Shown here: positions 34,053 through 37,973 of the stretch, piece by piece
How the letters are laid out: every line of letters begins with the position of its first letter
Numbering within the stretch: the stretch's first letter is position 1
From: Spizellomyces punctatus DAOM BR117
Lineage: Eukaryota
Length of the DNA: 64,000 nt
Direction: 5' to 3' (one strand)
Assembly: GCA_000182565.2 (NCBI GenBank)
Contig: KQ257469.1
Translations under genes and position numbers: made by a program
Notes under the pieces: generated by a model
The model's database searches: none
Seen by the model: the letters and a program-made list of their open reading frames with translations, nothing else
What the model was told of the DNA's origin: nothing

Positions 34053-35368
34053 ATGACCAGAGTAACCAAAATGGCGCGGAAGACGCACGAAGAGGCGTCC
34101 GGGTTTGTGGTGACACCTCTTTTGCCAAAGTCCAACTCGACAGGGGAGCAGCCGGATAGTACTAAGAAGCGGAAACGTAAGGAGGAAGTCGTGGCTGCTC
34201 CTACAGAGGCGAAAAAACACAAGCACGCCGAAAAGTCTTCCAAGGAGGAAAAGAAAAAGCGAAAGGAAAAAAAATCTCCGGAGGGAACGAGTGACGGTCC
34301 GAAGGTAGCGGATAGTACAGAAGTCAGCGAAAAGACGCCCAAGCCGAATAAGAAGAGAAAAGGAGAGGACAATAGCCCTGCGGTTGGTGAGAGACAGACA
34401 GACAACACTCCAGCTGCTCCATCTACAGGTGGATCCGCTCAAAAGAAAAAGAAGATGCGCCATCGATCAAAAGCTGAGTCGACACAGGGTGCCGGTACAT
34501 CTGGGGGAAAGCGGGGTAAGGGAAAAGTAGCCGAGGATGGTCTATCAAAGTATGGTTAGTATCCGTACATACCTATGAGGCCGACCGAGAGCAGCCGACT
34601 AAATGGTGGGTGGTTTTTAGAGAGGGAAGCCCTCAGAAGACGAACAAGGAGAGAAGCAATGAGGGAGAAGAAAATGGTATGCCAGTAACGATCTTTATTC
34701 TTATGAAGACACCCTGATATCGATTGCTTTCAAGGTCTGCTACCTTTGCAGAAGCATGGGGCACTCCATAAAATTCTGTCCGAAAGCTACGGAACAAGAT
34801 AAACAAGCCGTATCCGGAATTTGTTACAAGTGCGGTTCTACTGCCCACAAATCATCAGAATGCAAAAAAATGGTGGATCCTAGTAAGTGTCCTTATACAA
34901 TAGCTAATTTACTCATACAATTACACACCAGGACAATTTAATCATGTTTGGCGGTCACCTTATTTTAGAGAACCCATATCCTTTTGCGCACTGTTTTGTT
35001 TGCGATCAGCAAGGCCACTTGGCAAGTTTATGCCCAAAAAATGAACGGGGTCTGTATCCGAACGGAGGCGGTTGCAAATACTGTGGTTCAGTTAGGCACT
35101 TGGCGAGGGACTGTAAGCCTGCGTTGCAGGGTACGTAAATGGTTGTTGTGCATGGTACATGAATCACAGGCTTAACTCAATCTCTGTCCGGGTATCGTTT
35201 CTAGAAGCTGGGATTACCACGCTAGGCACCATCGATCTCAAGCAAGGTGGTGACGATGACGATGTGTTCGTAGCGCTACATAAGATGCAAGGTGACAAAG
35301 AAAAGGCGGCTGAGACTACAAAGCCAGGTACTAGGAAGTCTTCAAAGAAAAAGGTCGTAAAATTCTAG
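34053..35368 (+). CDS. ZCCHC9: CCHC zinc-knuckle protein, ZCCHC9-like
   Basis: Lys-rich N-terminus. Four knuckles: CLPCRSMGHSIKFC, CYKCGSTAHKSSEC, CFVCDQQGHLASLC and CKYCGSVRHLARDC, with the linker GLYPNGGG. Ends KKKVVKF*. Confidence 0.8.
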
Positions 35369-35477
35369 GTTAGTGGTGCCGGTATGGGAGAGGAGCTTGC
35401 TGAGCTGTTGAAGTTAGTGATCGATTTAATCATGCATTTACGGGTAGTTTGAGGTAGCTTTTGACTGATAATGATAA

Positions 35478-35558
35478 TTTATGAGAGTTGCATAGTGCGG
35501 AGCCGATGGGTATTGGCGGCACCAGGGATTGAACCGCGCGACAACCGGTTCGGAAAAC
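35478..35558 (-). ncRNA. Fanzor omegaRNA: about 66-nt scaffold plus about 15-nt flank-derived guide
   Basis: Begins 21 nt after the Fanzor stop. Scaffold GTTTTCCGAACCGGTTGTCGCGCGGTTCAATCCCTGGTGCCGCCAATACCCATCGGCTCCGCACTA (35558-35493), then flank TGCAACTCTCATAAA. Self-complementary, and closely resembles the SpuFz1 omegaRNA as I recall it. Exact ends are inferred. Confidence 0.8.
35495..35517. repeat. Terminal inverted repeat, omegaRNA end
   Basis: GTGCGGAGCCGATGGGTATTGGC, the exact reverse complement of 37608-37630. The symmetry extends to 27 bp when the flanking CATA/TATG is included. Confidence 0.97.
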
Positions 35559-35579
35559 CTAATCTAACCAATCTACGTT

Positions 35580-37472
35580 CTACGCTACGGCTGGAACACT
35601 CCTCCTGCTGAACACTTCTGGTCTACAGTGCCCATCCAACATTGATCTCACAATCATTAGCATGTTGCAGGTTGACAGCGTATCTCGATTCCAGTAGCGC
35701 ATTCCCGATGTCCAGGCTTGCTGCAAACAGTTAGGGTTGGTACAACCCAGCAATCCGTGGACTTTTTCAACCTTGCCTTCTCGTCGTCGATAAGGTCTTG
35801 AATGAGCTCGTGTTTTGAAGCCTTTTTTGAGGAAGTCGTTGGATGAGGCCAAACAGCGAGGGCAAACAGATGAGGTCTTGTACTCGTCGAGAAGGAAGCA
35901 GTTGATCCTGTTCCGCTTAAAGAGGGTGCGCCAACCTTTCGTCTTTGATGAGATCTGAAATCTCGCAGTTCGACCGGCGTCGCTCCAATCACCCATCACA
36001 ATGGTGAAGTTTTCACCGTACTTGTTGTGCAAGTTGGATATGAGGTTCGATTCGCTCTTCTGACGGTTTATAGATGCATGCCATTTCCATCGAGTATGAG
36101 CAGGGTGGGCATAGAATTCCTTGCGACGATCCCAATCAGCGCGGCGAACGAGAAGGTAACGCATGAAGTCTATGAGGTTCATCGTCTTGTGGCTTGAAAT
36201 ACGTGATTCTATGAGGTCAATACCGCCGGCTTTCATTGCTTCCCGCTCCCTTGCAAATCGCCGGCTGCCTGTCTCCATGGCTCGCTGGTTTGCGGTGTAG
36301 CGAAACGTTGTACCATTGCTGTCTTGGCAGTAGAGAAGATCGCGCTTGTTTGGGTCAATAACGACAAAGTTCTCTTGACAAGCAGATAAGTTGTTTTCCA
36401 CATAAAGCGCTTTAACCTCTGCCTCCATCGTGTTTGCTGACTTTTTCCCTCCGCTGCGCTTTCCATACTTGTCTGCTTCTGGGTGCTTTAAGTATACAGA
36501 CACCGAGGTTCCGTCCGTCGTGATCGAGCCTTCAAACCACATTCTACGACGAGATCTAAAAGCCTTGTTCTGCAGATTACAGACGCGCAACCATAAATCG
36601 ACCTTCTCTACGGCTTCTGCTTCTTGGCGGGTGATGCAGAGGATGTGGGCGTAGAGAATGACCGTGTCGATGCGAATATGGGACTGAATCAGAGACCGAC
36701 GAAGAGGGATTGCACTGAACCGACGGAAGCCATGTCGTTCATACAGCCCAGAGAGTTTGCAGTATGCAGGAAAGAAAGCGAGAGGGTCTACAGCAACCGA
36801 ATATGCGAGCTGCTGGTCAGAAAGGGGAATGAAGGACCACATCTCTTCTAGAAGTTCACTCTCTTTAGCAGTCAAGTCATCAAGTGACTCGGGCACAATA
36901 TCAAAAAGGAAAATTGACTTCAAGTAGCGTAGCCGAGCAAAGAAAGCTTTCCGCGCTTCACTCTTTGGAGGCCCTTTCCGTCCCTTCACGTCGAGCCGCA
37001 GATTGATATACCGAAGGAGCATCTGCATGAAATGCTCTTGAACGTTGACTTTCAGGTTCGTCATCATACTCACTGTCAGGTAATTGACTGATTGCTGCTC
37101 GCCTCGTAGATTTGGGTGAACAAAGCCGACGATTTGGCAGTACCGTTGAACATATGGCAGCAAACAATCCCGCCATGCCTTCTTTGCTTCCTTTCTTGGA
37201 TGCCAAGCCTCCCCCTTGTTGAGAAGGTAGAGAATCGCTTCGATGGTCTCCTCATTCACGGTGAAGGATGGTGCAGATAGGGTGTAGAATTTGAGAGCGT
37301 GGGAAGCGTGGGAAGCGAGTTGATGGATGATGGCGATGTAATCTAGAAGACGCTGCCGGTAGGTCTCATTAGGCAAGAAAGCCTTTGCAAAGGACGTCTT
37401 GTTGCAGGTATGTAAGGTGGGTTTGTCGAGTTTTTCGAGCCTTTCGAGCTTTTGCTTTTTCTTTGGCGGCAT
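35580..37472 (-). CDS. Fz1: Fanzor1 RNA-guided DNA endonuclease (eukaryotic TnpB/Cas12 relative), SpuFz1-like, 630 aa, intronless
   Basis: NLS PPKKKQK. SITTDGTSVSV motif. RuvC-I VVIDPN (D373). MGDWS motif. Displaced RuvC-II LLDEYKTS (E530). Zn finger CPRC..CTNPNC (C537, C540, C577, C582). RuvC-III YWNRD (D597). Confidence 0.97.
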   Translation of the reverse strand: MPPKKKQKLERLEKLDKPTLHTCNKTSFAKAFLPNETYRQRLLDYIAIIHQLASHASHALKFYTLSAPSFTVNEETIEAILYLLNKGEAWHPRKEAKKAWRDCLLPYVQRYCQIVGFVHPNLRGEQQSVNYLTVSMMTNLKVNVQEHFMQMLLRYINLRLDVKGRKGPPKSEARKAFFARLRYLKSIFLFDIVPESLDDLTAKESELLEEMWSFIPLSDQQLAYSVAVDPLAFFPAYCKLSGLYERHGFRRFSAIPLRRSLIQSHIRIDTVILYAHILCITRQEAEAVEKVDLWLRVCNLQNKAFRSRRRMWFEGSITTDGTSVSVYLKHPEADKYGKRSGGKKSANTMEAEVKALYVENNLSACQENFVVIDPNKRDLLYCQDSNGTTFRYTANQRAMETGSRRFAREREAMKAGGIDLIESRISSHKTMNLIDFMRYLLVRRADWDRRKEFYAHPAHTRWKWHASINRQKSESNLISNLHNKYGENFTIVMGDWSDAGRTARFQISSKTKGWRTLFKRNRINCFLLDEYKTSSVCPRCLASSNDFLKKGFKTRAHSRPYRRREGKVEKVHGLLGCTNPNCLQQAWTSGMRYWNRDTLSTCNMLMIVRSMLDGHCRPEVFSRRSVPAVA

Positions 37473-37519
37473 GATGATATCTGAAAAAGATGAAAGCCTG
37501 GGAAAATGGGCACGACAAC

Positions 37520-37526
37520 TTATATA
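37520..37526 (-). promoter_or_regulatory. TATA box inside the element, upstream of Fanzor
   Basis: TATATAA on the minus strand, 47 bp upstream of the ATG at 37472. Confidence 0.55.
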
Positions 37527-37607
37527 GGATTTTTTGGATCAAACCATAGTTCATGAGTCTACATCGAGTAAAATTATGATTAAATTGGTTGGAATCTATG
37601 TACTAGT

Positions 37608-37630
37608 GCCAATACCCATCGGCTCCGCAC
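37608..37630. repeat. Terminal inverted repeat, promoter end
   Basis: GCCAATACCCATCGGCTCCGCAC followed by TATG, i.e. CATA immediately 5' of the element on the minus strand. Confidence 0.97.
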
Positions 37631-37973
37631 TATGTATCTACACATCGTGGTGATTTTCCAAGTTATCTGCATGCGCTGCCATTGGAGTCTTCTTGCTAGA
37701 TATTTGATGTTCAAGTAACTACGTCTGACGCTAGTGTCCTATATGTTAGTGCCCTAATGAGCTGAGATTCAACAGAAGAATATTGCCACAATTTGATATA
37801 ATGGGAAAGAATGGCCCGAACATATATTCTCGCTATTGATTCTGCCTTTTACTCGCAAAGACCAAGTTGACAGAGAAATTAGATATCTACATGCACGCAT
37901 ATCTGCAAAAAATATACTACAATAATGCAAACATCGGAGTTTCCAAATCATGAAATATTCGCCGTTTATATCC

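What the first reader, a model, noticed from the sequence alone, without database searches (positions are those of the whole stretch)
35478..35558. omegaRNA crossing the transposon end, with an apparently shortened scaffold
Seen: on the minus strand, 35558-35493 forms a 66-nt scaffold ending ..GCTCCGCACTA, followed by host DNA TGCAACTCTCATAAA as the guide. GAACCGGT (35551-35544) can pair with ATCGGCTC in the TIR (35507-35500) at 7 of 8 positions, with one A-C mismatch. A competing perfect 6-bp hairpin GAACCG/CGGTTC also exists. The promoter end continues inward as TTGGCACTAGTAC, but this end lacks the matching segment, so the TIR stops at 23 bp. From memory, the SpuFz1 scaffold is about 75 nt and contains GGGTGCTAGT at this position. 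Inference: a roughly 9-nt internal deletion has made a naturally miniaturised or attenuated omegaRNA.
Basis: partly seen in the sequence, partly recalled or inferred. Interest (0 to 1): 0.75.

Follow-up and report, generated by a model that had tools for sequence, protein, structure and literature searches.

The report
Fanzor guide RNA, shortened hairpin copy
One copy of a well-known fungal RNA-guided nuclease transposon has lost nine bases from its guide RNA, in a part already shown to be dispensable, so the change is real but most likely ordinary.

Summary
The stretch is the right end and omegaRNA of a Spu-1/SpuFz1 Fanzor1 element (2,140 bp; 630-aa ORF, 86% identical to SpuFz1). The 66-nt scaffold is real. 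It is a net 9-nt loss (canonical G41-U50 replaced by one C), seen in 1 of 38 canonical right ends and in contigs of two public runs. The lesion lies wholly inside C40-G70, which Saito et al. 2023 showed makes no protein contact and can be trimmed. Every contact base named there is kept. The remaining stem 2 (-9.7 kcal/mol) is stronger than the published working 52-nt trim (-2.1). The best reading is a private, near-neutral hairpin deletion that leaves a usable, perhaps mildly weaker guide and cuts the right TIR from 30 to 25 bp. Similar single-copy deletions recur in this genome, including a 54-nt scaffold. Activity and small-RNA ends were not tested. The scan earlier noted this omegaRNA on other copies and shortened stem-2 forms here and in another genome.

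The parts
35493..37632 (-). Spu-1-type Fanzor1 element, TA to TA, 2,140 bp
   Evidence: Ends and length; 83-90% identical to 17 other full-length copies; matches the SPu-1 description of about 2,100 bp, 33-bp TIRs and putative TA TSD
35580..37472 (-). Intact 630-aa Fanzor1 ORF (SpuFz1 paralog)
   Evidence: phmmer E=0 to PDB 8gkh; 538 of 626 aligned residues identical to the 638-aa L094 protein; catalytic 4 of 4, TAM 6 of 6, heteroduplex 13 of 13, scaffold-contact 22 of 25 residues kept
35493..35558 (-). omegaRNA scaffold, 66 nt (canonical 75)
   Evidence: ends inferred from the published scaffold, not mapped here
35531..35551 (-).
   Evidence: Pair probability 0.97-0.98; 100% of cells paired, one compensatory and three one-sided changes across 13 copies; published stem 1
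35525..35530 (-). 6-nt linker A29-C34, unchanged
35519..35524 (-). 5' arm of basal stem 2 (U35-C40), unchanged
   Evidence: Pairs with 35493-35498 at P 0.76-0.91; protein-contacting part
35517..35519 (-). Deletion junction: canonical G41-U50 replaced by one C (net -9 nt)
   Evidence: Alignments; crossed without gaps by contigs of runs X1 and X2
35499..35518 (-). Remnant distal stem 2: 1x3 internal loop, 3-bp GCC/GGC stem, 10-nt loop
   Evidence: Predicted; whole stem 2 is -9.7 kcal/mol against -18.1 and -19.6 for two canonical copies
35493..35517 (.). Right TIR remnant, 25 bp including TA (left end 33 bp; usual match runs to position 30, or 33 with one mismatch)
35478..35492 (-). Predicted 15-nt guide from host flank; predicted target is CATA plus this sequence, i.e. 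the empty insertion site
   Evidence: Sequence; guide length and TAM from Saito 2023; mean unpaired probability 0.95; a few minus-strand RNA reads on the flank
37600..37634 (-). Left TIR (37600-37632) with the upstream CA that completes the CATA TAM (37634-37631)
35205..35369 (+). Last exon of a convergent host zinc-knuckle gene whose transcript runs towards and over the guide region
   Evidence: GT-AG intron 35131-35204 spliced out in contigs of X2 and X6; zf-CCHC in two upstream exons; + strand read depth 13-60 over 35200-35493 in X22

Best explanation
This is an ordinary Spu-1 Fanzor1 copy with a private deletion in the distal part of omegaRNA stem 2. Shown here: the deletion, its uniqueness among the copies examined, retention of stem 1, the linker and basal stem 2, and an intact nuclease ORF. 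From the literature: the scaffold is transcribed through the right end, trimmed to scaffold plus 14-15 nt of flank, loaded on Fanzor, and directs cutting next to a CATA TAM; C40-G70 makes no protein contact. Inferred: this 66-nt scaffold still loads and guides, at normal or modestly reduced efficiency, against the empty allele of this insertion site. The deletion probably arose by slippage or end-joining in a 41-nt imperfect palindrome that holds three GTGC repeats; one route is a 12-nt loss between the outer repeats plus a GCC duplication. Its main cost is more likely at the DNA level, because the same bases are the inner 5 to 8 bp of the right TIR.
For: The lesion (41-50) lies inside C40-G70, reported as non-contacting and non-essential; all contact bases named there (U5, C6, C7, U16-G20, G22, A29-C34, U35, G37, A72, A75) are present. 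Scaffold plus guide folds into the published two stems, P 0.98 and 0.90. Covariation supports those stems (0 of 500 shuffles for percent paired and covariation score). Stem 2 at -9.7 kcal/mol is stronger than the published 52-, 54- and 56-nt trims (-2.1, -5.9, -7.9). The only other differences from the published scaffold, G10A and C62U, are common among copies. Shorter stem 2 also occurs in 2 more of 38 canonical ends (-4, -21) and 3 of 100 listed ghost-type ends (-6, -7, -10; 102 matched), each seen once. Among 40 ORF-anchored copies, 6 of 7 private indels fall in 40-70 (binomial P 0.02). The three changed contact residues (W570Y, M607T, R419E) are shared with 2, 7 and 6 of 7 other intact paralogs. 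PpFz1 naturally has a 4-bp SL2.
Against: No activity or small-RNA data for this allele were seen. The published trims are symmetric and this one removes only the 5' arm. Basal stem 2 falls to P 0.00-0.33 for 5' leaders of 20-126 nt, whereas 11 canonical copies mostly stay above 0.7; the working 52-nt trim behaves as badly or worse in the same test. Trimming does cost activity in some settings, 1.26- to 1.94-fold. The indel clustering drops to 4 of 5 if the copy beside an assembly gap (L114) is left out, was counted without 3 copies that carry another TIR type and without a shared -1 in stem-loop 1, and could reflect mutation bias in a palindrome and not selection. The pattern counts can only see deletions between their anchors. 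RNA support is thin: minus-strand depth 2-5 on the flank in one cDNA library.
Confidence: 0.7

Rival explanations
1. The asymmetric deletion strongly weakens or kills this omegaRNA because stem 2 misfolds in the precursor, so the RNA is poorly protected or loaded; the locus still supplies protein that uses other copies' guides.
For: Stem 2 energy is halved; basal stem 2 is out-competed by the 5' leader at lengths of 20-126 nt.
Against: In the mature form both stems are predicted (P 0.98 and 0.90). Published working trims are less stable and misfold as much in the same calculation. Several canonical copies lose stem 1 in the same test, so the test is a poor predictor.
Confidence: 0.15
2. The sequence could work, but little mature omegaRNA is made from this locus, for example because the convergent host mRNA runs antisense over the guide and scaffold.
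For: Host + strand reads at depth 13-60 up to the element end and 7-14 inside it, against minus-strand depth 2-5 on the flank. About 90% of scaffold reads carry ghost-type letters (444 of 494 at 35529). Saito saw the small RNA at only four Fanzor loci.
Against: Minus-strand reads do lie on the unique flank. The library is cDNA RNA-seq, about 6 in 100 read, and cannot show a 80-nt RNA's ends. + strand reads inside the element may come from other copies.
Confidence: 0.08
3. The shortening was selected, either as a streamlined scaffold or to dampen a guide that has a partial self-target in the genome.
For: One site elsewhere in G000 has CATA plus the first 10 guide bases.
Against: About 0.19 such sites are expected by chance; the match stops at 10 nt, where SpuFz1 has minimal activity; the allele is single-copy; similar deletions occur on a frameshifted copy and on ghost-type ends.
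Confidence: 0.05
4. The deletion is an assembly error.
For: The region is a GC-rich hairpin in a multi-copy repeat. X1 or X2 could be related to the source of the assembly.
Against: An unspliced 790-nt contig of X1 (35200-35548, no differences) and a spliced 1,285-nt contig of X2 (35204-35575, no gaps) both join the unique flank to the junction.
Confidence: 0.02

Closest known systems
SpuFz1 omegaRNA of the Spu-1 / SPu-1 element of Spizellomyces punctatus (Saito et al. 2023, PMC10432273; PDB 8GKH; Bao and Jurka 2013, PMC3627910)
   Same: Scaffold overlapping the right IR with a flank-derived guide; stem 1, linker and basal stem 2 as published apart from the common G10A; CA upstream of the left IR; 86% identical nuclease with intact catalytic and TAM residues.
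   Different: 66 nt instead of 75; G41-U50 replaced by C; right IR match 25 bp instead of 30. The junction was not found in the searchable tables of tested omegaRNAs.
Engineered trimmed SpuFz1 scaffolds, 73 to 44 nt, final 52 nt (Saito 2023 supplementary file 4; retested by Chen et al. 2026, PMC13434818)
   Same: Shortening of distal stem 2 with stem 1, linker and stem base kept.
   Different: Engineered trims are symmetric and keep the 8-nt loop on a near-perfect stem; this natural allele loses only the 5' arm and keeps a bulged remnant. It is 14 nt longer than the published minimal design.
Ghost Spu-1 omegaRNAs (Saito 2023; 126 unique, 74-76 nt, Chen 2026)
   Same: Same stem 1 and stem base, with a distal stem 2 that differs freely; several are active in cells.
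   Different: Ghosts lack the ORF and replace the distal stem 2 without shortening it; this locus has an intact ORF and a deletion.
PpFz1 omegaRNA of Parasitella parasitica (Xu et al. 2024, PMC11423790)
   Same: A natural Fanzor1 scaffold with a short second stem.
   Different: PpFz1's SL2 has only four base pairs and is the form tested for that protein; here the shortening is a single-copy lesion.

Membership tests
Spu-1 / SpuFz1 Fanzor1 element (by descent) | About 2.1-kb element with one ORF of about 630 aa homologous to SpuFz1 | tested here: met
   2,140 bp, 630 aa; E=0 to 8gkh; 86% identity
Spu-1 / SpuFz1 Fanzor1 element (by descent) | RuvC catalytic residues D383, E541, D606 (plus N385) and CATA-reading residues | tested here: met
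   D373, N375, E530, D597; TAM residues 6 of 6
Spu-1 / SpuFz1 Fanzor1 element (by descent) | Terminal inverted repeats ending in TA, with CA upstream of the left one | tested here: met
SpuFz1 omegaRNA (functional core) | 5' U5-C7, stem-loop 1, 6-nt linker and basal stem 2 with the protein-contacting bases | tested here: met
   Sequence comparison, folding, covariation, contact list
SpuFz1 omegaRNA (functional core) | A discrete small RNA of scaffold plus 14-15 nt of flank | tested here: inconclusive
   Minus-strand depth 2-5 on the flank in one cDNA run; no shared start or end sites; no small-RNA library was laid
SpuFz1 omegaRNA (functional core) | Binding to Fanzor and guiding cleavage next to CATA | not testable with these tools
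   Needs RNP pull-down and cleavage or editing assay
Canonical intact Spu-1 right end | 75-nt scaffold (74 with the common -1 in stem-loop 1) | tested here: not met
   66 nt; so it is a damaged member by descent, not a canonical intact end
Canonical intact Spu-1 right end | 30-nt IR (33 with one mismatch) | tested here: not met
   Match breaks after position 25
Ghost Spu-1 element | No Fanzor ORF and ghost-type IR | tested here: not met
   Intact ORF and canonical IR letters

The most novel reading that the evidence does not exclude
Distal stem 2 is kept at full length only because it doubles as the transposon's right TIR. Deletions there would then split the two jobs: the copy stops moving but keeps making a working guide, and the genome accumulates a natural series of immobilised mini-omegaRNAs (70, 66 and 54 nt on Fanzor copies, more on ghosts). 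On this reading the 54-nt allele at L020 (8-bp stem, 4-nt loop, stem P at least 0.95 at every leader length) could match the 75-nt scaffold and beat the engineered 52-nt trim.
Probability: 0.2. Interest if true: 0.4.

Novelty: new variant of a known kind. Interest (0 to 1): 0.15.

Why it matters
The system, its structure and the dispensability of this region are in print, so the allele alone changes little. It is a natural check on the published trimming result. Together with the other single-copy deletions it offers a small ready-made test of whether distal stem 2 is conserved for the transposon end and not for the RNA. The 54-nt natural scaffold at L020 is the better candidate for compact Fanzor editing than this 66-nt one.

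Tried and rejected
Fold z-score of the 66-mer is only -1.2 (28 of 200 shuffles as good), so energy alone shows nothing; the support is homology and covariation. Compensating protein change at this locus: none private among 48 listed contact residues. A parent copy: none; the nearest of 17 full-length copies is 90% identical and the nearest neighbour changes along the element, so the lesion cannot be dated. Full self-target in G000: none; the single TAM+10 match diverges after 10 nt. The extra CA outside the right end (27-bp apparent match) arises because the guide starts UG, as do 8 of 71 distinct flanks. Rfam: 0 matches at E up to 1. Pfam: no family for the Fanzor ORF. The bacterial promoter scan is not meaningful for a fungus. 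L014's guide as a sibling-targeting guide: no TAM-plus-guide match. Prior-art search for the junction: 0 hits in the Saito and Chen supplements. The control motif was found in Saito files 4 and 5 and Chen file 5 but not in the GenBank-format Saito files 6 and 7, so those files were not effectively searched.

Full report
What the region is. The finding sits at the 3' end of a minus-strand ORF, 35580-37472, of 630 aa, which matches SpuFz1 in PDB 8gkh at E=0. The ORF lies in a 2,140-bp element bounded by inverted repeats ending in TA, with CA outside the left end. This fits the SPu-1 element of Bao and Jurka 2013 (PMC3627910; two passages read) and the Spu-1 element of Saito et al. 2023 (PMC10432273; passages; section 10 in full; part 4 of supplementary file 4). 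Those authors report an 88-90-nt RNA of a 75-nt scaffold plus 14-15 nt of variable flank, and a CATA TAM. The omegaRNA-across-the-end idea is therefore correct and published.

The deletion is real and private. An anchored pattern found 38 canonical-type right ends in G000: 35 with full stem 2 and three shorter, by 9 (this locus), 4 (L002) and 21 nt (L020). To avoid selecting on the scaffold I also anchored on the ORF's 3' end; 40 of 50 candidates were scored. All 40 keep stem 1 and the base of stem 2, one of them cut by an assembly gap, and only this locus has this junction. Against the published 75-mer (identical to L004) the window differs by G10A, C62U and replacement of G41-U50 by one C. 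G10A and C62U are common among copies. In public runs, a 790-nt unspliced contig of X1 covers 35200-35548 with no difference, and a 1,285-nt contig of X2 covers 35204-35575 with one other letter and no gap. X2's contig is spliced, so I take it as RNA-derived although the tool guessed DNA. Either run might be related to the source of the assembly.

The fold. The 81-nt scaffold plus guide folds into stem 1 (G8-C28 to G13-C23, P 0.97-0.98) and a stem 2 whose base U35-C40 pairs with the last six bases (P 0.76-0.91), topped by a 3-bp GCC/GGC stem. On 13 hand-picked canonical, ghost and deleted ends (L020 is misaligned there and drops out of stem 2), the published stems pair in 99.4% of 170 cells with 4 compensated pairs, and 0 of 500 shuffles reach that percentage. 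Relatedness inflates such scores, but the contrast and the cryo-EM description agree.

Why the loss probably matters little to the RNA. [quoted passage not shown] Every contact base they name is present here. Chen et al. 2026 (PMC13434818; abstract, sections 8 and 19 in full) found the 52-nt trim 1.26- to 1.94-fold weaker than 75 nt in three comparisons and not significantly different in one. Xu et al. [quoted passage not shown] The window's stem 2 (-9.7 kcal/mol) is half as stable as canonical (-18.1, -19.6) but lies between the published 56-nt (-7.9) and 58-nt (-11.2) trims and far above the 52-nt trim (-2.1). Against this reading: with 5' leaders of 20-126 nt the basal stem falls to P 0.00-0.33, while 11 canonical copies mostly hold above 0.7. 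The working 52-nt trim falls to about 0 in the same test, and several canonical copies lose stem 1 instead, so this does not show loss of function.

The protein side. Catalytic (4 of 4), TAM (6 of 6) and heteroduplex (13 of 13) residues are kept, and 22 of 25 scaffold contacts. W570Y, M607T and R419E are shared with 2, 7 and 6 of 7 other intact paralogs. L098, which has the last two, matches in scaffold and guide a tested ortholog listed with TAM CATA. No private compensating change is seen at these positions.

How it arose and what it costs. Stem 2 is a 41-nt imperfect palindrome with GTGC at 37-40, 43-46 and 49-52. The allele can be written as a 12-nt loss between the outer repeats plus a GCC duplication, or as a 9-nt loss plus U50C; either needs two steps or a templated insertion (inference). 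Shorter stem 2 also occurs in 3 of the 100 listed ghost-type ends (102 matched). Among the 40 ORF-anchored copies, 6 of 7 private indels lie in 40-70 (P 0.02). That count leaves out three copies with another TIR type and a widely shared -1 in stem-loop 1, falls to 4 of 5 without the gap-adjacent L114, and may reflect mutation bias. The lost bases are also the inner part of the right TIR: the ends match for 25 bp with the TA, against 30 (33 with one mismatch) in most of the 17 comparison copies printed. Each deletion allele is single-copy, which fits loss of mobility but equally fits recent origin.

Expression. In raw cDNA reads of X22 (about 6 in 100 read, 1,502 laid), the spliced + strand host gene shows as first-mate-plus, so I read first mates as sense. 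Minus-strand depth is 450-990 over the scaffold's 5' part, about 90% with ghost-type letters, and 2-5 on this locus's flank out to about 35452. This suggests some read-through across the end but cannot show a processed RNA, and the strain of X22 is not known to me. A convergent zinc-knuckle gene stops 124 bp from the element end and its reads overlap the guide region.

Target. The predicted target is the empty site, CATA plus the guide. G000 has no full match; one site has TAM plus 10 nt, about 0.19 being expected by chance.

Prior art and verdict. Three literature searches (listings and abstract starts only, apart from the four papers above) showed no report of this allele. The junction was absent from the searchable omegaRNA tables of Saito and Chen; GenBank-format files, two scanned PDFs, one oversized PDF and all figures were not effectively seen, so the locus may well be among the 42 listed by Saito. 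Earlier notes of this scan describe the same omegaRNA on other copies and shortened second hairpins; they are not counted as support. Verdict: a real, single-copy, probably tolerated variant of a solved system. Interest 0.15.

Noticed in passing
L020 / L040 / L092 (G000:C3:1637436-1637489, +): Natural 54-nt scaffold: canonical 46-66 lost, leaving an 8-bp stem 2 with a 4-nt loop (-11.9 kcal/mol; stem P at least 0.95 at all leader lengths). The ORF is frameshifted near residue 455 and the right TIR match is only 9 bp. Its junction was not found in the searchable Saito or Chen tables. A better mini-scaffold candidate than the window's.
   Followed up: partly
L002 (G000:C16:572456-572499, -): 70-nt scaffold with a 4-nt loss at 41-44; basal stem 2 is poorly predicted (P 0.37) and the ORF is broken.
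   Followed up: partly
L010, L011, L112 (G000:C9, C15, C10): Three ends with Fanzor-ORF 3' sequence carry a different distal stem 2 and terminal repeat, with the same stem 1 and stem base. Bao and Jurka list three Fanzor1 families for this species; these may be another of them.
   Followed up: no
G000:C4:717169, C10:817825, C11:889327: Ghost-type right ends shortened by 6, 10 and 7 nt in distal stem 2, each seen once.
   Followed up: no
window 34053-35369 (+) and 35369-35493: A convergent, spliced host gene with a lysine-rich start and four zinc knuckles ends 124 bp from the element; its transcript overlaps the guide region in antisense.
   Followed up: partly
L014 (G000:C17:397559-397657): A right end is followed 17 bp later by an inverted left-end fragment of about 57 bp, giving a second right-end-like terminus; its guide has no TAM-flanked match in G000.
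   Followed up: yes
L022 and L023 (G000:C7:283420 and 276422): Two right ends 7 kb apart share the same flank and guide, so a segmental or assembly duplication and not two insertions.
   Followed up: no
L091 (G000:C6:1372332-1372345): CATA plus the first 10 bases of this locus's guide; diverges afterwards; within chance expectation.
   Followed up: yes
window 35515-35577 in run X22: About 90% of minus-strand scaffold reads carry ghost-type letters, so ghost loci dominate omegaRNA-region transcripts in this library.
   Followed up: no
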